A stretch of 20,000 bases of DNA, taken from the IMG/VR virus record IMGVR_UViG_3300009158_000042; one strand, written 5' to 3'. Position 1 is the first letter of the stretch. Each line of letters begins with the position of its first letter. The translations under genes were made by a program, and so were the position numbers. Origin of the DNA: an uncultured virus (IMG/VR IMGVR_UViG_3300009158_000042) (lineage: Duplodnaviria > Heunggongvirae > Uroviricota > Caudoviricetes). Shown piece by piece: positions 1 to 17,069 of this stretch. The notes beneath the pieces were generated by a model, which ran no database searches, was not told the origin of the DNA, and worked only from the letters and a program-made list of their open reading frames with translations.

Positions 1-3000
1 CTAGCTTTAGTTCTTCTTTATAGGCTTCATCTTCTTTGAAACGTTTTCTTCTGACATTTAGTATTTCAAGTGCTTTTGCCCAAGTATCAACATCTGGTCC
101 GAATGCTTCATTTAGTGCTCTAATTTGTGCTTCTTTGTCTATTTGTCCAAAACCATCTTCGGCAGGCTCAAGTCTGTTGTATCGCTTGTATTTTTCGTAA
201 AGTTCCCAATACTTGAATTTCTCCTGCTCAGGGTTGGCAAATTCGAGTGTTTGGTCGAAACTGTCATCATGATTTCCACCTCTGGCTACGGTAAAACGAG
301 TTGATTCTCTGCCAGAAGAAAGTCTTGTGCTTCCCTCTTCTTTCTGGGCTGCAACAAAAGACTCTTTGTCTGATTCAAATTTTTTTACATCGGCGTCAAA
401 CTTTTCGCGCTCAAGTCTTAGTTTTTCATCGCGGCGCTTTCTGCTAAGTACAGAAGTGTCCCAGTTGTTTTCTATAGCACCATCAATTATCTTTTGCATT
501 ACCTGACTGGTTGCGAAGGCATCAGCGTCTGCGTTGTGATGTCCGTCGCCAAGTTCCACGCCGAGGTATTCGGTAATGGCGGCAAGGCTGCTGGATGGTT
601 TGGTTGTCCCGTCTCTACTACTTACGATATGTGGGCCATCTGGGCTATCTTCGCTCCATACCGGAAGGGTAAGAGAACTTATTTCGCGAGTATCTAAATA
701 ACCGCGTGGTGTCCAATCGATACCGCTTTCACGTAAAGCATCATCAAGAACGTTCTTGTCGAAAGTTGCGTTCTGAACGCCGATGATTGCGTCTGGGCCA
801 ATAAACTCAGCAACCTGTCTATGCGCTTCAGCCATGGGCATTTGCGTGGCAAGCCATTCATTGGTAATCGGATTACCGTCTGCGTCTTTAAGATTTGCTA
901 AAGACCATTCTCCTAGTGGTTCTTCTGGGTTCATAAACAGATTTAATCTGCCTATTTCTTCCCCATTTTTCATGCGAACTAGGCCAATTTGTGTTGGTTT
1001 TCCGTTGGTTGTGGCTTTACCAAACTCGTCAAAATTCAGGCCGGTTGTCTCATAGTCGAGAAATACAATTTCGGCATCGTTGTATTTCTTCTTGAACTCT
1101 TCCCATGAATTAGAGTCGCCAAAGTATGAATCTGCTTCACCAAGGAAAGCTCCAAGCGTTGGTTCGCGTGGATATCGTGGAGCCTTGCCGCTAGATAGGC
1201 GGTCTCCCATCTGTTCCTCAAGCTGGTTAAATGCTTGAGAATCGTCAACTTCAGGAGCCCGTGAGGTTTTAACTGACAGAACCCTGGCAAGTTCTTCCTT
1301 GAGCACATCTCTCTTCCAAACATCTTTATCTTCTTCGCTCTTGCCACTAGGACCACGGTATTCAAATATAACAGGGAGTTTTTCGGACTTGACCAGAACT
1401 CTTAGCCATGCTTCATATGGCGTAGTTGATTTATCTGGGATTATTTCTTCTTTAGACAACCCCTTATCCCCGAAGTTTTTGTCAAACCACACATCTGTCA
1501 TTGCTGGGTTAAACATCTCAACATCGTCAGTTTTAAATACTCCGCCCCTAATGTTAGGAACTACCTCTATGCCATACTCTCGCATTAGTTCATCACGTGA
1601 TTGCGCCATATCAATCAGGAGACTCACATTGCTTTCGTTATTCTCGTTGTAGTCCTTGCTAAGTTCTCCCAACTCTTTTCTAAACTCTTTTGGTGTAGCA
1701 ATTATTGCTTGAACTTCTTCAGGCTTGAATCTTCCAAGAACTAATGCTTCTTTGTAACTTGCTGATATGCCATTGTCGGAACTAGCCTCAAATGCTCCGG
1801 ATGGTGTTGGGTAAGTGTCGCCAGTCTTGTAGTCATAAAGTATGCCAAGTGGACTAAAACTACTAAGAAACACTCCATCTTCACCCAGTGAACTGAGTTG
1901 AAGAGGCGCATTGTCTTTCATTGACATATCAACTGTGTCTGCATCAAAAACCCTAGTGCGCTCTGCAACTTCTGGTCGTAGCACAAAATGTGAATCGCCG
2001 TACTTTTGTGTTCTGTTCTGCGAAGCCTCTAGTGCTGCTCCTGCAGGACCTTCGTACATAAGTTTAATGTCGTCTCCGTATATTTTTTTAAACTTTTCTT
2101 CTCGTGCTAATGCTGTTTTTGAAGTAGTAACATAGCCCGATGATGGTCTAAGTTCTCTTACTTCTGGAGGGTCTTCCACCCCTTCTTCAAACGGTAAACC
2201 TAATAGATTGCCTTCAACCTTTCGTCTGGCACTGGTAGTAATAGCATCGCCTATTAGGTTCATAGACTCAATATCAGCTGCTTCTCTTTCTTCTTTGTCA
2301 TGTTGAGTGAGTATGGTGCGATTGCCCTTAATAAACGAGGCAATGCTTCTTGTCCTTACGAGCACCCGTGTGTCGATAGATTTACCATACGCTTCAGACG
2401 CCTTCCTCATGTCTGCATTCAACTGTTCTGGGGTGGCTGTTTTTAGATAAGTTTTAAACTCGTCAATTTTTGCAACCATTTCAGTATCGCCCCTAGCGAT
2501 ATGTATCTGTCTTGATATTTCTAATGCTACGCTCGGAGGAATAGGGTCTCCTTTTGCCCATACTCCAGACTCACGAAGTCTTGCTTGTATGGGGAAAAAC
2601 GCTGCCTCGGCATCCCTGCCGGTCATCTCCGAAGTAAAAAACTTTCCTTCTGCTACTACTTCGTTTATGTAATCAATAGCCTCTTGCGGAAGAATTGTAT
2701 CTTTTTTAAAGTAATAGTCAATTTGACGCTTGGCGGACTCTGCTGTTTCTTTTATTCTTGTATCGAGTTTTTCTTTGCTTACTTTTTCTTCAAAGTTCGT
2801 GCCGTAACCGAGTCGTTCTTTCAAGGCTCTTAGTTTCCCAAATATTTCCTGCGTATAAGCTGCGGATATATCGGCATTATTTATTTCGGTACCACTAGAA
2901 AGTTTTTTGGTTACTTCTGGGTCGTAGCCCCATTCAAGCCAAGAGTCGCCGGCTGTATAAATATCCTTAGCCTTGACTCGCTTCTTTATGATTTGATATT

Positions 3001-3805
3001 CGCCACGCAGTGCTCCATCGCCGTGCATAACTGCGTACTCTCGAATTGGGGTAACCCAGTCACCGGGGGTTATCTTCATGTCGTCTGGTGGAAGATTCTT
3101 TAGTCTCTCTATTTCGTCTCGAACACCCTGAGACCAATCGCTAGGTTCGATACTTCTGCTGGTTCCTTCTGGAAGTTTGCCACGCGCCATATATCTGGCG
3201 AGTTGTTTTTCTAGTTTTTCTATCTTTTTACTGTTTGAAAGAGGCACCGCACGATAAATAGTCACCTCGGCATTTGGCTTGCCTTTGTATTGCTTAATCA
3301 GGCTGGCGGCTATTGGGTCAAGCTGGTCATCCCCGACACCATAAAAACGTATTGCATCGGCAGAATAGACGTCCTCTGGATAAACTCCACCATCTGCCAA
3401 CATGTCATGTAGGGGAGCGCCTGCGCCTCTTTCTGGAGCTCCATGCTGGCCTCTGTAGTCCTCGTTAGCGCCCGAAGACATTCTTCTGGCTGTCTCAGTG
3501 CCTCTTGTGGGCGAATCTATGCCAATAAAACGTGGATTAGTTGAGCCTTCGTCTACCCAGCCGTCATTGTCGGGGTCAAAGTTGCTGAGGGTGGGTTTTC
3601 TGTAGCCACGAACTCCGCCCGTCGGTGCATCAATGTCCATCCCGCCACGGCGGCGTCTTCCTTCGCCAATGCTTGGCCTATCCACTAGTCGGCTACCGAC
3701 TAATCGGGCGAGTCTATTTCCAAGCGCTTTCTGCTCTACTGAGGCAGGGCGCGCTCTACGGGATTCCTCTATGGGAATAAGGAACTCATTATCATCGACA
3801 GACAT
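1..3805 (-). CDS. Giant multidomain (polyvalent) protein / candidate polyprotein, 5' part only (>1268 aa): leader, ART-like domain, DUF3626-like domain, DEDDh 3'-5' exonuclease, further module
   Basis: Manual translation from ATG 3805 (MSVDDNEFLIP...) to the window edge (...EDEAYKEELKL) shows no stop codon, so it is absent from the ORF track. Motifs: VTIYRAVP...ITPGDWVT...EWGYD; ELRPSSGYV...KYGDSHFVLRPEVAERT...YKEALVLG; VFLDYETTGL / QNATFD / HNADAD. Confidence 0.93.
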   Translation of the reverse strand, partial: MSVDDNEFLIPIEESRRARPASVEQKALGNRLARLVGSRLVDRPSIGEGRRRRGGMDIDAPTGGVRGYRKPTLSNFDPDNDGWVDEGSTNPRFIGIDSPTRGTETARRMSSGANEDYRGQHGAPERGAGAPLHDMLADGGVYPEDVYSADAIRFYGVGDDQLDPIAASLIKQYKGKPNAEVTIYRAVPLSNSKKIEKLEKQLARYMARGKLPEGTSRSIEPSDWSQGVRDEIERLKNLPPDDMKITPGDWVTPIREYAVMHGDGALRGEYQIIKKRVKAKDIYTAGDSWLEWGYDPEVTKKLSSGTEINNADISAAYTQEIFGKLRALKERLGYGTNFEEKVSKEKLDTRIKETAESAKRQIDYYFKKDTILPQEAIDYINEVVAEGKFFTSEMTGRDAEAAFFPIQARLRESGVWAKGDPIPPSVALEISRQIHIARGDTEMVAKIDEFKTYLKTATPEQLNADMRKASEAYGKSIDTRVLVRTRSIASFIKGNRTILTQHDKEEREAADIESMNLIGDAITTSARRKVEGNLLGLPFEEGVEDPPEVRELRPSSGYVTTSKTALAREEKFKKIYGDDIKLMYEGPAGAALEASQNRTQKYGDSHFVLRPEVAERTRVFDADTVDMSMKDNAPLQLSSLGEDGVFLSSFSPLGILYDYKTGDTYPTPSGAFEASSDNGISASYKEALVLGRFKPEEVQAIIATPKEFRKELGELSKDYNENNESNVSLLIDMAQSRDELMREYGIEVVPNIRGGVFKTDDVEMFNPAMTDVWFDKNFGDKGLSKEEIIPDKSTTPYEAWLRVLVKSEKLPVIFEYRGPSGKSEEDKDVWKRDVLKEELARVLSVKTSRAPEVDDSQAFNQLEEQMGDRLSSGKAPRYPREPTLGAFLGEADSYFGDSNSWEEFKKKYNDAEIVFLDYETTGLNFDEFGKATTNGKPTQIGLVRMKNGEEIGRLNLFMNPEEPLGEWSLANLKDADGNPITNEWLATQMPMAEAHRQVAEFIGPDAIIGVQNATFDKNVLDDALRESGIDWTPRGYLDTREISSLTLPVWSEDSPDGPHIVSSRDGTTKPSSSLAAITEYLGVELGDGHHNADADAFATSQVMQKIIDGAIENNWDTSVLSRKRRDEKLRLEREKFDADVKKFESDKESFVAAQKEEGSTRLSSGRESTRFTVARGGNHDDSFDQTLEFANPEQEKFKYWELYEKYKRYNRLEPAEDGFGQIDKEAQIRALNEAFGPDVDTWAKALEILNVRRKRFKEDEAYKEELKL

Positions 3806-4791: not shown

Positions 4792-6611
4792 TTAGATACG
4801 TGGTTCCACTCAATTACCTCAAACGGGAATCTTTTCCCACGTCTCATTTTAGTAGGCCAATGCCTCTCATCGCGTGCACCTCTGAAGTGTTTCACATCGT
4901 ACACATACTCACCTAGAGCCGTTGGGTCGGGAGTGAGGGAGATACCGAACTCTGGCCACCTCGACCATACCGCTGAACCAAATGGTCGCAATTCTCTTGA
5001 CGTCATGCTTGAGCCCAGTGGGGCGTGATGCTCAATCCATAGAGCACAGCCATACACGACACGAATAGTGTCAAGATACTTGGCTACTTCTAGAGCTACT
5101 GATTCTGAAGTTCTGCCACCTGGGTCAAGGAACGCTTTATAAAGAGGTCCTATCAACAGTATTTGTGGCTTCACGTCTTCAATAGCCTGCTCCAGTACTG
5201 CTCTGTCTGAGGCTTTCATTAGGTCCATGCCGGACGGTTTTGTTAATACGTAGGCGTCAAACCTGTCGGTCCTTGAATACGCCATTGCGTCTTTGGCAAT
5301 AGCACGAGAGGTTCGTCTAATAATCTTTTCTGGGTTTTCAAGGTCGACAGTTAATGTCCTAACCCTCGGCATTGGCTGCAACGAAAGGGGATGAATCCCG
5401 CACGAAGAAAGAATAGCAACCTGTCTAGCAAGCATTGTCTTGCCAACACCTTCGGCTGCTACGACGATTACACGCTCTGACTTTTCTAGCAAACCAGGGA
5501 TAACCCATTCGTAGGATTCGTCATCCGATTCACCCAGGAAGTCGTTCCACTGAACGAGTCTTCCAGTATCTACCGCCCTAGTCATACTGGCAGTAGCAAT
5601 AATTAAATTGCTTTTTGCAATCTTTTGAAGAGGGCTTATGTCTTTTCTGTCAAGCAAGTCTTGTAGTTTGGCTAGAGCCATTTCTTCAAGCGACTCTTGT
5701 TCTTCATCTTCTTCAACTAGTTGATTATTTGTGGATTCTTGAATCCCAACATTCTCTTGCTCTGTAAATCTGTATTCCTCAATAGCAATGAGTTCATCAA
5801 GTTCTCCACCAGCACCAATGTGGTCGGATATGTCTTTTGCTTCTGGACACATCCAAATCTGTGCATCACACCCAGCGTCAATTAATGTTTCAAATACTTT
5901 CTTAGCGTGAGCAATACCTACTTCATCATGGTCTGCAATTATTTCAATTACAGCACCAGACAAAGCCTCGGTATGAATGTCGAGCCACTTGCCCGCACCG
6001 CCAGGCATTGTTGTTGCTATCTCTCCAAGTGAGGCAAGCGTATTCGCGTCCTTTTCACCTTCTACCAACCAAATGGGAATTCCCTCTTGTTTGGCTGCCA
6101 GAACTAAGGGAAGATTGTAGAGAACTTTCGGTATCTCACCGAGACTGTATTCCCACCCACCGTTTCCATCCGGTTTGCGTTGGCGAAATGTTTTTTTTCC
6201 TTCTTCGTCTATGTAGCGAAGTTTCTGAAATAAAACGTTTCCGTCAGCATCAACATAGTTGTACGTATCTACCAGCGTTGTTTTCAATGCTTGCTTTGGT
6301 GCCTGTGCTGGCTTGTTAATCTTTAAAGGTTTCTCAGTAAGAAAACTTTTAGCAGAAGAAAGAGTATCGTCTCCTGGCATTAAGTCAGACACATGTAGTC
6401 CAACAGACGCACATATTGCTTCTACGTCACAAGATTGACCACGATGGCAAGTGACCAGTACTCGTCCATCATCCCCTTGCCCAACGGAGAGTGAAGGGTT
6501 TGAGTCGTCGTTTCTGCACGGGCATCTAGCCTGCCAGCCTGAACCAGTCTTGCGAACACCCTCAAGCCGCTGTAAAAAATTTTCTGTTATCTGAGATGCG
6601 ATTACTGACAT
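4788..6611 (-). CDS. DNA primase-helicase (Zn-binding + TOPRIM + RecA/AAA_25-type helicase)
   Basis: CPCRNDDSNPSLS...CHRGQSC zinc motif; TOPRIM VEGEKD and ADHD; Walker A AAEGVGKT; DLEN; HH and RPFGS motifs. Confidence 0.9.
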   Translation of the reverse strand: MSVIASQITENFLQRLEGVRKTGSGWQARCPCRNDDSNPSLSVGQGDDGRVLVTCHRGQSCDVEAICASVGLHVSDLMPGDDTLSSAKSFLTEKPLKINKPAQAPKQALKTTLVDTYNYVDADGNVLFQKLRYIDEEGKKTFRQRKPDGNGGWEYSLGEIPKVLYNLPLVLAAKQEGIPIWLVEGEKDANTLASLGEIATTMPGGAGKWLDIHTEALSGAVIEIIADHDEVGIAHAKKVFETLIDAGCDAQIWMCPEAKDISDHIGAGGELDELIAIEEYRFTEQENVGIQESTNNQLVEEDEEQESLEEMALAKLQDLLDRKDISPLQKIAKSNLIIATASMTRAVDTGRLVQWNDFLGESDDESYEWVIPGLLEKSERVIVVAAEGVGKTMLARQVAILSSCGIHPLSLQPMPRVRTLTVDLENPEKIIRRTSRAIAKDAMAYSRTDRFDAYVLTKPSGMDLMKASDRAVLEQAIEDVKPQILLIGPLYKAFLDPGGRTSESVALEVAKYLDTIRVVYGCALWIEHHAPLGSSMTSRELRPFGSAVWSRWPEFGISLTPDPTALGEYVYDVKHFRGARDERHWPTKMRRGKRFPFEVIEWNHVSK

Positions 6612-6629: not shown

Positions 6630-6959
6630 TTAGTTTGGCAAAAGAATGTTGATTGGTTCTCGCGGTACTACGAAAATATTTAAGCGCCGACGCATTGTTT
6701 GTCTTTCACGTTCAGTCATCCCGCCCCATATCCCGAAGTGCTCATGATACAGGCCGTATGAAAGACATTCTTCCTTAACGTGACAGTCGGAACATATTTG
6801 TAAAGCAATACCGGTATTCATTCTGGCTTTTCTGTAGTTATCAGAAAAATTTCCTGGCTGAGTTTTATCAGCGTGTGGATACCAGATGTTTGGGTTAAGA
6901 CCTTTGCAATCACCATCTCTTGGTGGTGTGTCAACTCTTTGCATCTTTTCCCCGTTCAA
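6630..6959 (-). CDS. whiB: WhiB-family Fe-S transcriptional regulator (start may be ATG 6944)
   Basis: Four Cys (CKG...ICSDCHVKEECL) plus GIWGG followed by ERER, the WhiB signature. Confidence 0.92.
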   Translation of the reverse strand: MNGEKMQRVDTPPRDGDCKGLNPNIWYPHADKTQPGNFSDNYRKARMNTGIALQICSDCHVKEECLSYGLYHEHFGIWGGMTERERQTMRRRLNIFVVPREPINILLPN

Positions 6960-8917: not shown

Positions 8918-10843
8918 ATGCCATTTATTGACGACGCTTTCGTTAATGCTTACGCAGTAAAGCAAGCCCCATGGGGCTTTAACGGTATGGGGGAGATTGT
9001 TTTTCTTCGTACATATAGTCGCAAGAAAGATAACGGGAACATTGAAACATGGCCTGAAACAATTCAGAGAGTAATCAATGGCGCTCTTGAAATAGGTGTT
9101 CCGTATACGCAGGAACAAGCAGAAGAACTGTTTGACCATATGTTTAATTTACGTTGCTCCATGAGTGGTCGCGCGCTATGGCAACTCGGTACGCCAATGG
9201 TTTCTAAGTTTGGTGGAGCTTCACTCAATAACTGCTACTTCACTAATATTGAAAAAGTTGAAGACTTCGAACTTCTTTTCGACTACTTAATGCTTGGCGG
9301 TGGCGTTGGCTTTTCCGTTGAACGCTCCAAGATTCACGACTTGCCAAAAGTTAAGGGTGGCGTAGTCATTACTCAAGAACGTTCTAATGATGCTGACATC
9401 ATTGTCCCAGATAGCCGTCAAGGGTGGCGTAGACTTTTGCACAGTGTTCTTAAGTCGTACTTCGATACGGGGAGAAGCTTTTCTTACTCAACAATCTTGA
9501 TTCGCGAATACGGCGCTCCACTTAAAGCTTTCGGTGGTACGGCAAGCGGTCCTGGTGCGCTGATTGACGGTATTGCTGATATTTGCAAAGTAATGGATAA
9601 CCGTGTAGGAAAGAAGCTTAGGTCTGTAGATGTTTTGGATATTTGCAACATTATTGGTCGCATTGTTGTTTCCGGCTCGTCACGTCGGTCCGCGCAAATA
9701 GCAATGGGTGACCCTGATGATGTCCTTTTTCTTCGTGCAAAGAATTGGTCATCAGGAAGTGTTCCTGCATGGAGAGCAAACAGCAACAACTCGCTCTATG
9801 CGGATGGTTACGATGAACTGAGCACTGAACTGTGGAAGGGCTACGACGGTTCTGGAGAGCCTTACGGCTTGGTGAACAGAAAGCTCGCCCGTACCTATGG
9901 TCGCCTTGGCGAGCGCCGTGTCGATAATTCTATTGAGGGTTTTAATCCATGTGCAGAGATTGCTCTTGCTGACGGAGAGTCGTGCAACCTTGCAACAATA
10001 TTCTTGCCCAATATTGAATCGTTGGCGCAGTTCTTGTCAATATCAAAACTTCTCTACATGGCACAGAAGCAGATAACGCGTCTTGCTTACCCATACGAGA
10101 AGACCACGAATATTGTGCGTCAGAATGCTCGTCTTGGACAGAGCGTAACTGGAGTTCTTCAGTCAACAGAAAAACAAGTTTCTTGGTTGTCTCAGGCATA
10201 TGAACACCTTCGTCAGTTTGACGCTGAGTATTCAGCCGAGCACGGATTCCCGCAGTCCATCAGAATGACCACCGTACAGCCCTCTGGGACGCTCTCCCTG
10301 CTGCCTGGAGTAACGCCGGGCATACATCCGGCATTCGCCCCTTATTATGTCCGTAGAGTGCGTTTTGGCTCCAATGACCCGCTTATTGACGCCTGCCGCA
10401 AGCGTGGCTACAAGGTTCAGTGGGATATCGGTTTGGACGGTCGCGAAGACCACACCAGACAGGTCATCGACTTCCCATGCATGTCACCAGAAGGCTCAAT
10501 TTTGGCCAAGGACATGACCGCAGTTGAACAGCTTGAATGGGTGAAAAAGATGCAGACAGATTGGGCAGACAATGCCGTATCTGTAACCGTCTATTACCGT
10601 AAGGAAGAGCTGGAAGAAATCAAGACATGGTTGTCAAAGAATTACGACAAGAGCGTTAAGTCAGTTTCATTCTTGCTTCACTCGGACCATAACTTCGTAC
10701 TCCCTCCATACGAGGAAATAACAAAAGAAGCGTACGAGAAGCTTGTAGCAAAGATTGACTTCACTATTCCTTTGGTTCAAAATAGTTTTGAAGGAACCGT
10801 AGACCTTGAAGATTGTGCAACTGGTGCTTGTCCGATAAAGTAG
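8918..10843 (+). CDS. nrdJ: Class II (adenosylcobalamin-dependent) ribonucleotide reductase, monomeric RTPR-like
   Basis: LNNCYF, GGGVGF, RRSAQI, catalytic FNPCAEI, ESCNL, TTVQPSGT and C-terminal CATGACPIK redox pair; no adjacent class I beta subunit. Confidence 0.92.
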   Translation: MPFIDDAFVNAYAVKQAPWGFNGMGEIVFLRTYSRKKDNGNIETWPETIQRVINGALEIGVPYTQEQAEELFDHMFNLRCSMSGRALWQLGTPMVSKFGGASLNNCYFTNIEKVEDFELLFDYLMLGGGVGFSVERSKIHDLPKVKGGVVITQERSNDADIIVPDSRQGWRRLLHSVLKSYFDTGRSFSYSTILIREYGAPLKAFGGTASGPGALIDGIADICKVMDNRVGKKLRSVDVLDICNIIGRIVVSGSSRRSAQIAMGDPDDVLFLRAKNWSSGSVPAWRANSNNSLYADGYDELSTELWKGYDGSGEPYGLVNRKLARTYGRLGERRVDNSIEGFNPCAEIALADGESCNLATIFLPNIESLAQFLSISKLLYMAQKQITRLAYPYEKTTNIVRQNARLGQSVTGVLQSTEKQVSWLSQAYEHLRQFDAEYSAEHGFPQSIRMTTVQPSGTLSLLPGVTPGIHPAFAPYYVRRVRFGSNDPLIDACRKRGYKVQWDIGLDGREDHTRQVIDFPCMSPEGSILAKDMTAVEQLEWVKKMQTDWADNAVSVTVYYRKEELEEIKTWLSKNYDKSVKSVSFLLHSDHNFVLPPYEEITKEAYEKLVAKIDFTIPLVQNSFEGTVDLEDCATGACPIK

Positions 10844-10847
10844 TGGC

Positions 10848-11477
10848 ATGGCAGGAAGAAAACCAATCCCAGAAGAAGAACGTTTTTGGGAGAAAGTAGA
10901 TAAATCCGGACCTAATCCAGATTTTCCGGATTGCTGGGAATGGACTGCGAACAGGGTGAAAACATATGGTATGTTTTCGTGCAAGCGAAATGGAATAAAT
11001 AAAAAAGTCCAAACGCATAAATACATTTGGGAAAAACTAAATGGCACTGTTCCTGAGGGGTTGGAAGTTTGCCATCTTTGCAATAACCCACCATGCGTTC
11101 GCCCTGACCATCTTGAGGTTGGAACTCGCTCCCATAATCAACGTTATTCAGTTGTGCACGGGAACCATAAGGAAAGCAGAAAAACACACTGCAAACACGG
11201 GCATCTCTACGATGAAGAAAACACAATTCACAAAATCAGTAAACGTACCGGTTTTTACACACGAGATTGTAAGGCTTGCCACAAGAGGTGGAAGAAAGAG
11301 CGCTTTGCGCGCAGGCGTGAGGAAAAGGGAATAGAGCCTAAAAAACCAAACCACTGCAGAAAAGGTCACGACTTTGGTGTTTACGGGGAAAAGTGGTACG
11401 TGAAAAAAAGCGGACGAAAGTATCGGACGTGCGCGGAGTGCATGCGAATCAGAAATGAAAAGAAAAAAAATGGCTAA
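10848..11477 (+). CDS. HNH homing endonuclease with two C-terminal Cys/His zinc-binding repeats
   Basis: RFWEKVDK..CWEW, VCHLCNNPPCVRPDHL..GT..HN, then KTHCKHGH...CKAC and NHCRKGH...CAEC. Confidence 0.88.
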   Translation: MAGRKPIPEEERFWEKVDKSGPNPDFPDCWEWTANRVKTYGMFSCKRNGINKKVQTHKYIWEKLNGTVPEGLEVCHLCNNPPCVRPDHLEVGTRSHNQRYSVVHGNHKESRKTHCKHGHLYDEENTIHKISKRTGFYTRDCKACHKRWKKERFARRREEKGIEPKKPNHCRKGHDFGVYGEKWYVKKSGRKYRTCAECMRIRNEKKKNG

Positions 11478-12030
11478 GAACTTGCCGCTCATTGAAAGAT
11501 TTTTCCAGAAGGTCGATAAGTCTGGTAGCGAGGCGTATCCGGATTGCTGGATTTGGAAAGGCGGAAGGACGAGCAAGGATTATGGCTCTTTCAAGTACTA
11601 TCAAGACAGGCCGGCGATTGGGTCGCATGTTTCAAGTCACCTATTCCATATAGGGGAAGTACCAAAAGGAATGCTTGTCTGTCACCATTGTGATAATCCA
11701 CCGTGCGTTAATCCTAAACATCTTTTTCTAGATACGAATTCAGGAAACATGAAGGATATGTTTAAAAAAGGAAGAAATGGCTCTTCTACAAAAAAACAAA
11801 CTCACTGTAAAAAAGGTCATTCTTTTGAGGAGTTTGAGCCTCTTGTTTACATCAAGAAGCAGGGCAGGCAAATTGGTGAAGAATACAGAACCTGCAGGGA
11901 ATGCAAGCGCATCAATGACTCAAAAAGAAGAGGGAAGAACCTTGAATACATGCGCGAGTACAATCTTAAAAATAAAGATAAATTGAACGAACAGCAGAGA
12001 AACCTGTATCATGCTCGAAAGAGTAAATAA
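11470..12030 (+). CDS. HNH homing endonuclease (paralog of the upstream gene)
   Basis: RFFQKVDK..CWIW, VCHHCDNPPCVNPKHL...N..N..D, THCKKGH...CREC; ATG 11470 overlaps the end of the upstream gene. Confidence 0.88.
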   Translation: MAKNLPLIERFFQKVDKSGSEAYPDCWIWKGGRTSKDYGSFKYYQDRPAIGSHVSSHLFHIGEVPKGMLVCHHCDNPPCVNPKHLFLDTNSGNMKDMFKKGRNGSSTKKQTHCKKGHSFEEFEPLVYIKKQGRQIGEEYRTCRECKRINDSKRRGKNLEYMREYNLKNKDKLNEQQRNLYHARKSK

Positions 12031-15113: not shown

Positions 15114-15647
15114 TTAAATAGCATCTATGATTAAATGGATACGGTCGGTGTCGCCAGTATTTTCAACACTGTGATATCTATTGACATTGTCTATCACCCA
15201 TATCTCGCCAGTTTTTAAGTTCTTTGCTTCGTCGCCCACTTTGAAAATGCATTTTGTGCTGGTGATTACAGGGACGTGTATTCTGTGTGTTTTGGCAGTT
15301 AGTGGCCCTTTGTCCCTATGTCTGGGAATAACCGTATTCGCCTTAAGCCGGGTTAACATTGCCTGCTTAATGACCATCTCACCAAGAGTCTTTGCTGTCG
15401 TTCTGACTATCTCGTCAATGTGCCCCTCGAAGATAGCGTAGTTTTCATGTGTGATTCCAGAATTTAATCTTTGCGTTAGGTCATACATAAGTGGAATGGT
15501 ATCGGTGTTGGAGGCGGCTGCTCCACCATTCATTTTGCGTTCTTTATTTTTTTCCCAGTCTCTGTCAGTTAGTGAATTTACATCATTAAGAAGGTTTTCA
15601 AAAAGCGCCATGTTTCCTATGAATTGAAAAGCTTTACTTTCTTTCAT
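15114..15647 (-). CDS. Aspartyl/asparaginyl beta-hydroxylase-like 2OG-Fe(II) oxygenase
   Basis: HxD (PRHRD), RIHVP, YHSVEN.G..DRIHLIID. Start at ATG 15647 with GAGGT Shine-Dalgarno; the track start at 15680 lies inside the terminator. Confidence 0.88.
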   Translation of the reverse strand: MKESKAFQFIGNMALFENLLNDVNSLTDRDWEKNKERKMNGGAAASNTDTIPLMYDLTQRLNSGITHENYAIFEGHIDEIVRTTAKTLGEMVIKQAMLTRLKANTVIPRHRDKGPLTAKTHRIHVPVITSTKCIFKVGDEAKNLKTGEIWVIDNVNRYHSVENTGDTDRIHLIIDAI

Positions 15648-15665
15648 AACTACCTCATATATGGC

Positions 15666-15705
15666 AAAAACCCCGCCCACACCGTTCGAAGGTGCAGGCG
15701 GGGTT
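15666..15705 (-). terminator. Rho-independent terminator after the major capsid gene
   Basis: Minus strand AACCCCGCCTGCACC-TTCGAAC-GGTGTGGGCGGGGTT followed by TTT. Confidence 0.85.
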
Positions 15706-15719
15706 CCGCTTAGTGCTTA

Positions 15720-17069
15720 TTAGGCTTCTGGAGCGCCGTCGAATGTTACTTTGACGAATGCTTCTGGGCGCTTGACTGCAAGTGCAAGACGCTGTTCAGC
15801 AAGAACAACGATTGCGTTACGTACGAAGAAGTCGCTATGCTGTTCAGAAATTCTGATGCTAGCTTCTTCACGGTCGTACAATTGAGCACCAGTACCGAAG
15901 GCACCGACGAGTGCGACTCCTTCTGCGATTGCTGGAGTGTCAACCAATGGCATGCGCCAAACTTTTGGCTCGCCGCCCATTGCAACTGAAACTGCGATGA
16001 GGTATTGGCCATTCTTGTCCTTGGTCAATTCGATATCTTCCCAGTCGTTCGGGTGAAGAACAACGCCGGAAGGCTCGTAGTATGCAAGGTACGACAAGGT
16101 AGCCGCACGACGGATTGAGTCTGCCTTGGTGTCGGGCACTGGTAATGTTGCACCTTCTGACCATGAGTACTCCTGGATGTTTGGAGTCTGGAGAACACCG
16201 AGAAGGTTTTCGCCAGTTCCGTCACCGTTAAGGATTTGTGAATCCTCAAGAAGGCGGAGACCGTACATCAACTCGTTATCAATGATTGAACGAAGCTGTG
16301 GCTCGTCTGCAAGAACATTACGGTGCGCTGCTTCCCAGTGTGCGAGTGTACGCACTGGAGCTTGCTCACCAATGAAGTTGAATGACGACTGTGGCTTTGC
16401 TGCGAATGCTGAACCGTTACGCTCAGCTACTGCTGCCGCGTTATTTGTACCGCCACCGGTGAGGGTGGTGAAGCCAAGCTGGCGGAAGTATTCGATTACC
16501 TGTGCGTTTGTCTTGCGAACTGGGAACAAGTCACGAACACGCTTTGTACGCATTGGAGGGATAACGATTGAGTCACGCTGGATTGAACCGAAAACCGCAT
16601 CTGCACCACGGGCCATTGAGCCTGAAGGCATACCTGAGAAAACGTCTTTAACGTTGTACGAGGTAAGAGATGCTGAAATCTGCCAAGGAGCAGGCATGTT
16701 AGCGCCATTACGGCCACCGTTCAGTGCCTTGAACTCAGCGGAATCGGTGAACATTTGACCAATGCTCTTGATTTCGCGTGAGGAAAGCTGATTGATGTCT
16801 GCAGACGAAGCTGCATATGCTGAACCAACAGAACCAGATGCTGGCTCTGAAGACCAGCTATCAACGTTGTCCATGGTCTGAAGGTCACCAAGGAGAGACT
16901 TAATCTCTTTGATGTCACGCATGTTCTTGTCGAACGCGCTCTTCTGCTCGGTTGAAACGATAACTGTACCGTCTTCAATTTTGAATGAATCTGCGATGGC
17001 TTTATTATCTGCCATCTTTGTGCGAAGAGCTGATTGTAGCTCTTCTACGCGGGCTTTGTCTTGCGACAT
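15720..17069 (-). CDS. Major capsid protein, HK97 fold, with N-terminal delta (scaffold) domain
   Basis: Helical N-terminus, KSIGQMF..SAEFKA, AKPQS, LAHW, QILNGDGTGENLLG, VLHPNDW, FVRNAIVVLAEQRLALAVKRPEAF; strong AGGAG Shine-Dalgarno and downstream terminator. Confidence 0.95.
   Translation of the reverse strand: MSQDKARVEELQSALRTKMADNKAIADSFKIEDGTVIVSTEQKSAFDKNMRDIKEIKSLLGDLQTMDNVDSWSSEPASGSVGSAYAASSADINQLSSREIKSIGQMFTDSAEFKALNGGRNGANMPAPWQISASLTSYNVKDVFSGMPSGSMARGADAVFGSIQRDSIVIPPMRTKRVRDLFPVRKTNAQVIEYFRQLGFTTLTGGGTNNAAAVAERNGSAFAAKPQSSFNFIGEQAPVRTLAHWEAAHRNVLADEPQLRSIIDNELMYGLRLLEDSQILNGDGTGENLLGVLQTPNIQEYSWSEGATLPVPDTKADSIRRAATLSYLAYYEPSGVVLHPNDWEDIELTKDKNGQYLIAVSVAMGGEPKVWRMPLVDTPAIAEGVALVGAFGTGAQLYDREEASIRISEQHSDFFVRNAIVVLAEQRLALAVKRPEAFVKVTFDGAPEA

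What the first reader, a model, noticed from the sequence alone, without database searches (positions are those of the whole stretch)
311..3484. Phage polyprotein whose enzyme modules are delimited by a repeated [R/K][L/M]SSG pentapeptide: candidate proteolytic effector-release system
Seen: four copies in the giant ORF, RMSSG (3470-3484, aa 108), KLSSG (2891-2905, aa 301), RLSSG (1187-1201, aa 869) and RLSSG (311-325, aa 1161). Each falls between modules: leader | ART-like (~190 aa) | DUF3626-like (~560 aa) | DEDDh exonuclease (~290 aa) | next module. The copies use different codons (ATG TCT TCG GGC, CTT TCT AGT GGT, CTA TCT AGC GGC, CTT TCT TCT GGC), so conservation acts on the peptide, not on a DNA repeat. 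Known: phage head proteases process internal proteins such as T4 Alt, and phage polyvalent proteins string together unrelated conflict enzymes. Inference: SSG is a cleavage or recognition site that lets one translated and packaged precursor release several independent effectors, and acts as a fixed joint for swapping cassettes.
Basis: partly seen in the sequence, partly recalled or inferred. Interest (0 to 1): 0.92.

Follow-up and report, generated by a model that had tools for sequence, protein, structure and literature searches.

The report
Junction code in phage giant proteins
An uncultured phage of probable actinobacterial hosts joins the enzyme modules of its giant virion proteins with one short peptide (Leu/Met-Ser-Ser-Gly) that related phages replace wholesale with other "dialects", which looks like a protease cutting code, although no cut has been shown.

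Summary
They are 4 of 11 copies in a 4250-aa ORF (0.04 expected). In the complete 158.7-kb genome G001, 22 of 23 [FLM]SSG lie in four proteins: three giant multi-enzyme proteins and the probable tape measure (0.75 expected).

Codons differ at every copy, so selection acts on the peptide. Homology between 22 giant proteins (this one and 21 relatives) breaks at the motif: 47.6% of BLAST alignment ends lie within 15 aa of a site, against 8.2% by chance. Modules are reordered there.

Related phages use other motifs (FSSG, ISGRM/VSGKM, ITGAM, STRS, RSGFAS). Each genome uses one dialect in all its giant proteins, and at a homologous tape-measure position.

The best reading is a cleavage code read by a co-evolving phage protease. 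The embedded zinc metallopeptidase families track the dialect groups. The S78 head protease does not obviously track them. Cleavage itself is not shown.

The scan has noted similar junction motifs on other phage DNA. I found no published description.

The parts
2..3805 (-). First 1268 aa of a 4250-aa giant multi-module ('polyvalent') protein. The ORF continues beyond window position 1 (contig 22206-34958, locus L003).
   Evidence: 21 giant relatives of 2403-7353 aa
3482..3805 (-). N-terminal leader, aa 1-108. Residues 24-101 are 66% identical to an internal segment (aa 535-616) of the genome's S78-protease-bearing giant protein. Possible virion-targeting segment (inference).
3470..3484 (-). 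Junction copy 1, RMSSG (aa 108-112), between leader and module 1
   Evidence: alignments to relatives end near here (q 1-112, q 104-297)
2903..3481 (-). Module 1, aa 109-301. Possible ADP-ribosyltransferase (weak lead only); phrog_2579.
2891..2905 (-). Junction copy 2, KLSSG (aa 301-305)
   Evidence: alignment ends at q 296-308 and q 301-314 in 15 relatives
1199..2902 (-). Module 2, aa 302-869, function unknown. Weak local likeness to the DUF3626-bearing module. Homologs that are 44-73% identical lie at other positions in relatives that use other junction motifs.
2135..2149 (-). RPSSG (aa 553-557): not a junction; conserved residues inside module 2
   Evidence: R304, P305, S307, G308 invariant in 8 of 8 sequences
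1187..1201 (-). Junction copy 3, RLSSG (aa 869-873)
   Evidence: alignments start at q 863-876 in 20 relatives
323..1198 (-). Module 3, aa 870-1161: DEDDh 3'-5' exonuclease (PF00929 over aa 914-1102, window 500-1066)
311..325 (-). Junction copy 4, RLSSG (aa 1161-1165)
   Evidence: alignments end at q 1144-1167 in most relatives
2..322 (-). Start of module 4 (aa 1162-1421; ends at the next junction, outside the window)
15720..17069 (-). Major capsid protein (context). It carries no LSSG, only Q-L-S-S-R at the probable delta-domain/N-arm border.

Best explanation
The four copies are instances of a genome-wide junction code. In this phage a four-residue core, [Leu/Met/Phe]-Ser-Ser-Gly, often preceded by Arg or Lys, sits in flexible linkers between autonomous modules. 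It occurs in three giant multi-enzyme virion-associated proteins and at two places in the probable tape measure protein. A trans-acting factor reads the peptide and co-evolves with it, because related phages have replaced the motif at all their junctions at once with another one. The most likely reader is a phage-encoded endopeptidase that cuts the precursors into separate modules. One translated chain would then yield many independent enzymes, and any module placed between two junctions would be released correctly, which would explain the free shuffling. The best candidate reader is a zincin metallopeptidase module embedded in the giant proteins. In this ORF that is the HEWGH module at aa 1882-2235, which is followed directly by an invariant LSSG. 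The second candidate is the S78 prohead protease fused to a sister giant protein. Shown: the motif, its excess, peptide-level selection, its position at homology borders, its dialects, and its restriction to a few proteins. Inferred: that it is cut, by what, when, and that the products are delivered to the host.
For: EXCESS AND RESTRICTION. The ORF holds 11 copies against 0.04 expected. In complete genome G001, 22 of 23 [FLM]SSG lie in four proteins of 4250, 2645, 3369 and 1629 aa (0.75 expected there), and 1 in the other 174 ORFs. The same pattern holds in five other genomes: G002 22 of 23; G012 19 of 20; G009 16 of 16; G010 12 of 14 in giants and tape measure, plus 1 in the protease ORF; G011 35 of 35.

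PEPTIDE-LEVEL SELECTION. Nine LSSG copies use nine different codon strings. The flanks have no consensus.

BORDERS. Of 1982 BLAST alignment ends among the 22 giant proteins (P0002 and 21 relatives), 47.6% lie within 15 aa of a site. The chance value is 8.2%, with a maximum of 9.9% in 500 randomisations. The same module (aa 302-869) is flanked by LSSG here and in P0017 (73% identical), by VSG[KR]M in P0015/16 (70-71%) and P0019-21 (45-46%), and by SGFAS in P0018 (71%). Module order differs between relatives.

LINKERS. In the AlphaFold model of aa 1801-2280 the core (82-435) is folded. The flanks that hold RLSSG, LASG and RILSSG have pLDDT below 50.

DIALECTS ARE GENOME-WIDE. LSSG occurs in 3-4 proteins of G001 and G002; FSSG/LSSG in G012; ISGRM in G009; ITGAM in G010; STRS in five proteins of G011.

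COVARIATION AT A HOMOLOGOUS POSITION. In the probable tape measure (25-46% identical between genomes), the same N-terminal alignment column reads KRFSSG (G001), KKLSSG (G002), RLAGRM (G009) and NLTGAM (G010). In G011, AISTRS lies a few residues downstream of that column. Each protein also has a mid-protein site in its own dialect.

PROTEASES ARE PRESENT. There are two HExxH modules in this ORF. H, E, H and the downstream Glu are invariant in 12 of 12 aligned sequences, as is the LSSG right after the domain. The weak best fold matches are gluzincin metallopeptidases. The sister giant proteins carry MPTase-PolyVal (PF18818, E 4e-36), ArdC-N and Peptidase_S78.

ZINCIN FAMILY TRACKS DIALECT GROUP. 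The HEWGH-type module is found in the xSSG genomes G001, G002, G012, in P0022, and in diverged form in P0018. It is absent from G004, G009, G010 and G011. A second zincin family is found in the [IVL][ST]G[RKA]M sources P0016, P0019, G009 and G010, and in G004 (dialect unclear). It is absent from G001, G002, G012 and G011.

PRECEDENT. Iyer et al. 2017 (PMC5512222; section 8 and passages read) predict processing of polyvalent proteins by embedded zincins.
Against: No experiment or proteomic datum shows a cut. Everything is comparative.

The link between zincin family and dialect is confounded by phylogeny. The capsid N-arm region splits the genomes into the same three groups, and only seven genomes were compared.

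The two other LSSG-bearing giant proteins and the tape measure lack the HEWGH-type module, so it would have to act in trans. P0017 has 10 LSSG sites but only a different HExxH module.

The fold match of the HEWGH module to zincins is weak (E 6e-3, TM 0.18), and Pfam does not recognise it.

In favour of the S78 protease instead: the capsid protein has L-S-S-R or L-T-S-R at its probable maturation border in the xSSG clade. In G009 and G010 the protease ORF itself carries the local dialect.

The model of module 2, which would have covered two of the window's sites, failed (pLDDT 38).
Confidence: 0.6

Rival explanations
1. The junctions are cleavage sites, but the reader is the S78 prohead serine protease. 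It would act inside the procapsid as T4 gp21 or the phiKZ/SPN3US head protease does, trimming packaged cargo proteins.
For: Peptidase_S78 (PF04586, E 1e-10; phrog_80, E 1e-22) forms the N-terminus of the 3369-aa giant protein, which itself has 5 LSSG sites. The gene lies directly after the portal gene, and a second giant protein lies between it and the capsid gene. The capsid protein has Q-L-[ST]-S-[RHS] just before its conserved N-arm in the xSSG clade. The protease ORFs of G009 and G010 contain the local dialect motif. Multi-site cleavage of ejected head proteins by a head protease is established in SPN3US (PMC10052503 and PMC7411985; search listing and abstract start only).
Against: The S78 domain is 70-78% identical across genomes with unrelated dialects. 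That of LSSG genome G001 is closer to the STRS genome's (78%) than to the FSSG genome's (71%). The capsid proteins of the ISGRM, ITGAM and STRS genomes carry no copy of their own dialect at the N-arm border. In G001 the capsid protein, the 243-aa and 255-aa proteins between it and the 727-aa protein, and the portal have no LSSG-like motif. The tape measure, which is not a head protein, carries two dialect sites in every genome compared.
Confidence: 0.2
2. The motif is not cut. It is a short linear docking motif, read by a common partner that handles long internal virion proteins as beads on a string. Candidates are an assembly or ejection chaperone, the portal or the tail channel. The partner co-evolves with the motif.
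For: The comparative evidence (peptide-level conservation, genome-wide dialects, covariation in the tape measure) demands only a co-evolving reader, not a protease. N4 virion RNA polymerase, which has a zincin domain, is packaged uncut (PMC5512222, section 8). Both the tape measure and the cargo proteins must pass through the tail.
Against: A docking motif need not sit at essentially every module border, nor directly after each peptidase domain. Tandem copies 6-40 aa apart (LSSGRTTLSSG, ISGRMTSISGRM, STRSARYSLSTRS) and free reordering of modules fit punctuation better. No candidate partner was identified.
Confidence: 0.13
3. The junctions are cut by a host protease, and dialects reflect different hosts.
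For: Dialects differ between otherwise similar phages (capsid proteins 69-83% identical), which could follow host switches.
Against: Every genome examined encodes several peptidases inside the very proteins that carry the sites. The zincin family changes with the dialect group. No host is known for any of these genomes.
Confidence: 0.05
4. The motif is a modification site (for example serine phosphorylation or ADP-ribosylation by an enzyme of the same protein) or only a preferred hinge sequence.
For: R/K-x-S-S resembles basophilic kinase sites (recalled). Module 1 may be an ADP-ribosyltransferase (weak lead).
Against: The basic residue is not conserved in relatives. The dialects ITGAM and RSGFAS have little in common with a Ser acceptor. 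A generic hinge would not need an invariant Leu/Phe or switch in concert across a genome.
Confidence: 0.02

Closest known systems
Polyvalent proteins of phages and conjugative elements (Iyer, Burroughs, Anand, de Souza, Aravind 2017, PMC5512222)
   Same: Giant single polypeptides that string together unrelated enzymes (exonuclease, DUF3626, zincin peptidases; in the sister proteins ArdC-N + MPTase-PolyVal, helicases, a ParB-like DGHHRW sequence motif). They are encoded by a phage next to head genes, and embedded zincin-like metallopeptidases are predicted to process them.
   Different: That paper names no cleavage or junction motif: 'SSG' gives 0 hits, and the only 'cleavage site' hit is in a reference title. 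Here the junctions carry a sharply defined peptide. It is genome-specific, shared with the probable tape measure, and marks the recombination points. The paper states that assemblin-like peptidases always sit at the C-terminus of polyvalent proteins. Here the S78 protease is N-terminal.
Head-protease maturation codes of large myoviruses: T4 gp21 with its targeting-sequence removal, and phiKZ/SPN3US
   Same: One short motif is used at many sites in internal, ejected virion proteins. An N-terminal leader is followed by the first site, as with the T4 capsid-targeting sequence.
   Different: Those motifs are read by the head protease and also occur in the capsid and scaffold proteins. Here the capsid protein lacks the motif, and the S78 protease does not track the dialects. 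The T4 and phiKZ motif sequences are recalled, not checked here. For SPN3US only search listings and abstract starts were seen.
MARTX multifunctional autoprocessing toxins (works-like comparison only; recalled, not checked here)
   Same: Several effector domains sit in one chain, separated by unstructured linkers that carry a simple Leu-small-residue site. An embedded protease domain releases them after delivery.
   Different: No cysteine protease domain of that kind was found. These are phage virion proteins, not secreted toxins. This ORF is not a member.
Polyproteins of eukaryotic RNA viruses with an embedded protease and conserved cleavage sites
   Same: A protease and its sites co-evolve. 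Sites sit at every domain border and immediately after the protease domain.
   Different: The protease types and domains are unrelated, and this is a dsDNA tailed phage. Iyer et al. draw the same analogy (section 34 passage).
Tape measure maturation (lambda gpH to gpH*, T5 pb2), and junction peptides in giant tape measures noted earlier in this scan
   Same: The probable tape measure here has two conserved sites in the genome's dialect.
   Different: The sites use the same code as the head-module giant proteins, which links tail and head cargo to one reader. The lambda and T5 facts come from earlier notes and recall, and were not checked here.

Membership tests
Phage-type polyvalent protein (Iyer et al. 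2017) | One polypeptide combining several unrelated enzymatic or conflict domains | tested here: met
   RNase_T exonuclease (aa 914-1102), DUF3626 (aa 3745-3840) and two HExxH modules (aa 2104, 4122). 12-13 motif-delimited modules fall into separate homology families.
Phage-type polyvalent protein (Iyer et al. 2017) | Presence of a zincin-like MPTase hub domain | tested here: inconclusive
   In this ORF the HExxH and downstream Glu are invariant in 12 of 12 sequences, but Pfam PF18818 is not matched and the fold match to zincins is weak. The sister 3369-aa protein matches PF18818 at E 4e-36, with ArdC-N.
Phage-type polyvalent protein (Iyer et al. 2017) | Encoded in or beside virion morphogenesis genes and delivered with the DNA | tested here: inconclusive
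   Two sister giants lie between portal and capsid genes. This ORF lies about 12 kb from the capsid gene, with primase, WhiB-like and RNR genes between. Delivery cannot be tested with these tools.
Substrates of a prohead protease maturation code (T4 / phiKZ type) | A prohead protease is encoded by the phage | tested here: met
   Peptidase_S78, E 1e-10; phrog_80, E 1e-22
Substrates of a prohead protease maturation code (T4 / phiKZ type) | The same motif marks the maturation sites of capsid, scaffold or portal proteins | tested here: not met
   No [LMIFV][STA][STA]G in the capsid protein, the 243-aa and 255-aa proteins or the portal of G001. There is only an L-S-S-R tripeptide match in the capsid protein. 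The capsid proteins of ISGRM, ITGAM and STRS genomes lack their own dialect at the N-arm border.
Substrates of a prohead protease maturation code (T4 / phiKZ type) | Mature termini at the motif in virion proteomics | not testable with these tools
   No cultured member. The nearest cultured capsid relatives are 45-48% identical (Brevibacterium phage Cantare, Gordonia phages). No recurrent 4-mer was shared by six virion proteins of Cantare.
Self-processing viral polyprotein (functional class) | Protease and cleavage sites co-vary between lineages | tested here: inconclusive
   Two zincin families partition with two dialect groups, and S78 does not. However, only seven genomes were compared, and the partition matches the capsid-based grouping.
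DNA repeat / recombination joint | Conservation at the nucleotide level | tested here: not met
   Nine different 12-nt strings encode nine LSSG copies, with both serine codon families used. Only one pair of sites shares 33 nt at 88%.

The most novel reading that the evidence does not exclude
These phages may use a private, fast-evolving proteolytic 'punctuation code'. Embedded zincin peptidases would cut every ejected protein (the three cargo polyproteins and the tape measure) at a genome-specific four- to five-residue signal, possibly only after delivery into the host. One gene would then deliver a dozen separate enzymes. New cassettes would become functional simply by landing between two signals. 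The switching of dialects would keep the protease-site pair private to each lineage.
Probability: 0.25. Interest if true: 0.85.

Novelty: new variant of a known kind. Interest (0 to 1): 0.65.

Why it matters
If the junctions are cut, this family offers a defined and easily testable protease-site pair for the long-standing prediction that polyvalent proteins are processed. At least 435 capsid relatives of this family are in IMG/VR. It would give a rule for parsing giant phage ORFs into functional units, most of whose modules have no known family. It would explain how phages shuffle effector cassettes without breaking them. The natural set of orthogonal dialects (LSSG, FSSG, ISGRM, ITGAM, STRS, RSGFAS) would be a ready-made experiment on protease-substrate co-evolution. 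The shared code in head cargo and tape measure would link the maturation of the two kinds of ejected protein.

Tried and rejected
CHANCE OR LOW COMPLEXITY: rejected by shuffles and composition and by the restriction to four proteins.

DNA REPEAT OR RECOMBINATION SIGNAL: rejected by codon diversity.

RPSSG AT AA 553 AS A FIFTH JUNCTION: rejected; it is an invariant intradomain motif.

STRUCTURE OF MODULE 2 WITH BOTH FLANKS (alignment A3): the model was unusable (mean pLDDT 37.8). The two window sites at aa 301 and 869 therefore have no structural check.

A 1-1200 aa alignment (A2) was dropped because module 2 was misaligned with non-homologous modules.

COMPLEX PREDICTION of the HEWGH zincin core with a 35-aa junction peptide returned no verdict (score 0.01; controls not run). 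It counts neither way.

FOLDSEEK of the zincin model gave only weak matches.

The protein atlas gave nothing for the 255-aa protein upstream of the capsid gene.

PDB sequence search of the whole ORF found only the exonuclease.

LOCUS SEARCHES found nothing for P0016 and P0009 in viral contigs, or for P0019 in metagenome contigs. The VSGKM class was therefore seen only in protein hits and two short loci.

HEAD-PROTEASE READING tested through the capsid protein: a partial match (L-S-S-R) in this clade only.

LITERATURE: searches for LSSG + phage + cleavage; polyvalent protein + prohead protease + cleavage; bacteriophage + polyprotein + zincin + cleavage site; and MPTase-PolyVal / PF18818 found no description of such a motif. 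Supplementary files of PMC5512222 sit on an FTP site and were not seen; they might list linkers.

Dialect of G004 could not be settled (RLSD, GVSG, LTGAI).

Full report
**1. What is in the window**

The minus strand from 3805 to 2 is an open frame of 1268 codons that runs off the window. The window is the reverse strand of bases 6011-26010 of a 44,373-base viral record, G000, which CheckV rates 28% complete. In that record the frame is 4250 aa long (P0002).

- RMSSG, 3470-3484
- KLSSG, 2891-2905
- RLSSG, 1187-1201
- RLSSG, 311-325

**2. More than chance**

The whole ORF holds 10 strict [RK][LMI]SSG plus R-I-LSSG at aa 2241. Composition predicts 0.039. In 2000 shuffles the mean was 0.033 and the maximum 1. 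SSG occurs 12 times against 1.8 expected. The odd one, RPSSG at aa 553, is an invariant intradomain motif.

The nine LSSG copies are written with nine different 12-nt strings, using both serine codon families. Selection therefore acts on the peptide. Only two STRLSSG copies share DNA, at 88% over 33 nt.

**3. The motif marks module borders and shuffling points**

A search for proteins of similar length returned 21 giant relatives of 2403-7353 aa.
- 14 of the 21 carry 9-16 SSG against 1.2-3.6 expected. In the five whose contexts were printed, nearly all are L-SSG, and in several the preceding R/K is missing.
- BLAST alignments between P0002 and its relatives start and stop at the sites in both partners. 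For example, P0002 306-853 aligns to P0015 1697-2251, where P0015 has sites at 1692 and 2251. P0002 104-297 aligns to P0022 5204-5403, with sites at 5209 and 5414.
- Over all pairs among the 22 proteins, 47.6% of 1982 alignment ends lie within 15 aa of a site. The chance value is 8.2%, with a maximum of 9.9% in 500 randomisations; the median distance is 17 aa against 108. The ends are not independent, because related pairs repeat them.
- Cutting all proteins at the sites and clustering the pieces gives module families that recur in different orders.
- In the close relative P0003, the left flank of one P0002 junction is joined to the right flank of another. This looks like a recombination scar at the motif.

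**4. Linkers**

An AlphaFold model of aa 1801-2280 was built from a 12-sequence alignment and has mean pLDDT 65. Its core (local 82-435) is folded. Its flanks (1-81 and 436-480) score below 50, and they hold RLSSG, a degenerate LASG and RILSSG.

The model of module 2, which would have covered the window's second and third copies, failed (pLDDT 38). For the four window copies the evidence for a linker position is therefore comparative only.

**5. The modules**
- aa 870-1161 is a DEDDh exonuclease (PF00929).
- aa 3539-3954 hits DUF3626.
- aa 302-869 has only a 57-aa likeness to that module (E 8e-4).
- aa 109-301 has only weak ADP-ribosyltransferase neighbours in a language-model search (score 0.76).
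- Two modules carry HExxH, at aa 2104 and 4122. In the first, H, E, H, a downstream Glu and the LSSG that follows the domain are invariant in 12 of 12 sequences. Its best fold matches are gluzincin metallopeptidases, but they are weak (E 6e-3, TM 0.18).

**6. The code is genome-wide**

A complete 158,714-bp record with terminal repeats (G001) holds the same genes at 100% identity.

Of its 23 [FLM]SSG, 22 lie in four proteins:

| Protein | Sites |
|---|---|
| 4250-aa protein (this ORF) | 11 |
| 2645-aa protein | 4 |
| 3369-aa protein | 5 |
| 1629-aa protein | 2 |

Expected in these four together: 0.75. One more lies in the other 174 ORFs. Counting [LM]SSG only, the three giants hold 19 in 10,264 aa (0.47 expected). 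The other 175 ORFs hold 2 in 37,802 aa (1.7 expected).

- The 3369-aa protein follows the portal gene. It begins with a Peptidase_S78 prohead protease (PF04586, E 1e-10; phrog_80, E 1e-22). It continues with ArdC-N + MPTase-PolyVal (PF18818, E 4e-36) and helicase modules.
- The 2645-aa protein lies between the 3369-aa protein and the capsid gene. It has an HEISH motif and a ParB-like DGHHRW sequence motif.
- The 1629-aa protein follows the sheath, tube and tail-chaperone genes. In the cultured relative Brevibacterium phage Cantare that position is annotated as the tape measure. I call it the probable tape measure on synteny alone.
- The N-terminal leader of P0002 (aa 24-101) is 66% identical to aa 535-616 of the 3369-aa protein.

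**7. Dialects**

Seven of the 21 relatives lack LSSG.
- Five carry s-G-VSG-[KR]-M 5-6 times.
- One carries G-R-SGFAS-R about 7 times.
- One, P0023, has no recognisable junction motif and no HExxH.

Capsid-anchored loci show further motifs (80 of 435 IMG/VR relatives were fetched). Six whole or large records were read:

| Genome | Motif | Distribution |
|---|---|---|
| G002 | LSSG | 22 of 23 in four proteins |
| G012 | FSSG / LSSG | 19 of 20 in giants and a truncated tape measure |
| G009 | [IVL][STA]G[RK]M | 16 of 16 in five proteins |
| G010 | [IVL][ST]GAM | 12 of 14 in giants and tape measure, 1 in the protease ORF |
| G011 | STRS | 35 of 35 in five proteins |
| G004 | unclear | not settled |

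In every case the core is sharp and the flanks have no consensus.

The tape measures are only 25-46% identical, yet carry each genome's own dialect at the same N-terminal alignment column: KRFSSG (G001), KKLSSG (G002), RLAGRM (G009), NLTGAM (G010). In G011, AISTRS lies a few residues downstream of that column. Each also has a mid-protein site in its own dialect.

A motif that changes at all sites of several unrelated proteins in one genome, while the flanks drift freely, calls for a trans-acting reader that co-evolves with it.

**8. Who reads it**

The S78 protease does not obviously track the dialects.
- Its domain is 70-78% identical across dialects.
- G001's is closer to that of the STRS genome (78%) than to that of the FSSG genome (71%).
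- The capsid protein has no LSSG.
- Its probable maturation border reads Q-L-[ST]-S-[RHS] in the xSSG clade. This is a partial match found post hoc.
- That border carries no local dialect in ISGRM, ITGAM or STRS genomes.

The zincin families do track the dialect groups.
- A profile of the HEWGH module finds homologs in G001, G002, G012, P0022 and, in diverged form, P0018. It finds none in G004, G009, G010 or G011.
- The zincin of the VSGKM proteins is found in P0016, P0019, G009, G010 and G004. It is not found in G001, G002, G012 or G011.
- In both families the domain is followed at once by a junction.

This favours an embedded zincin, acting in cis and in trans. The sample is small, and the partition coincides with the capsid-based grouping, so I keep the S78 protease as a serious rival. 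A complex prediction of zincin plus junction peptide gave no verdict and counts neither way.

**9. What is known**

Iyer et al. 2017 defined polyvalent proteins and predicted their processing by embedded zincins. I read section 8 and searched the text: no junction or cleavage motif is given. Four further literature searches found no description of such a motif. Multi-site cleavage of ejected head proteins by a head protease is established in SPN3US-type phages, of which I saw listings and abstract starts only.

Earlier notes of this scan report junction motifs of other sequence in other phage giant proteins and tape measures, all unverified. This window adds three things:
- a complete-genome census;
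- one code shared by head-module giants and the tape measure, with covariation at a homologous position;
- the contrast between zincin families and the S78 protease.

**10. Verdict**

The reading 'cleavage or recognition site and fixed joint for cassette swapping' is partly supported. The joint, and recognition by a co-evolving reader, are well supported. Cleavage, packaging and release are inferences.

The host is probably an actinobacterium. The evidence is a WhiB-like gene in the window and nearest cultured capsid relatives that infect Brevibacterium and Gordonia.

Noticed in passing
window 3482-3805 (-), and G001 3369-aa protein aa 535-616 (locus L035): The N-terminal leader of the giant ORF (core DPDNDGWVDEGSTNPRFIG) recurs at 66% identity inside the protease-bearing giant protein. 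It heads 11 of the 22 giant proteins (module family 1). It may be a virion-targeting or assembly segment that the first junction removes.
   Followed up: partly
window 15114-15680 (-): An Asp/Asn beta-hydroxylase-like cupin (PF05118, E 7.5e-17) is encoded directly downstream of the major capsid gene. This is an unusual neighbour that might modify a virion protein.
   Followed up: no
window 10848-12030 (+): Two tandem HNH endonuclease genes (phrog_826, E 5e-41 and 8e-31) lie directly after the ribonucleotide reductase gene (window 8918-10843).
   Followed up: no
window 6630-6959 (-): A WhiB-like regulator (phrog_472, E 5e-15) points to an actinobacterial host. GC is only about 44%.
   Followed up: partly
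P0003 aa 296-330 compared with P0002 aa 296-312 and 860-873: In the 86-92% identical relative P0003, the junction after module 1 reads KKLSG...EEQMGSRLSSAAEIDNADT. The left flank of P0002's third junction is fused to the right flank of its second. This looks like the scar of a cassette exchange at the motif.
   Followed up: partly
window 15720-17069 (-), capsid protein aa 94-99: Q-L-S-S-R sits just before the conserved N-arm (EIKSIGQMF). It is conserved as L-[ST]-S in the xSSG clade and replaced by AAREFGF-type sequence in the ISGRM clade. It is possibly the capsid maturation site.
   Followed up: partly
G002 144738-148475 (loci L043-L044): A 1245-aa ORF made largely of collagen-like G-A-T-G / G-P-T-G repeats (75 GATG).
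   Followed up: no
window 13316: The window differs from its genome record at one base (G versus A).
   Followed up: no
P0010, P0004, P0023; loci L010-L016, L024: Several relatives carry pentapeptide-repeat modules (GANL/ADLSG runs; PF00805) among their cassettes.
   Followed up: no
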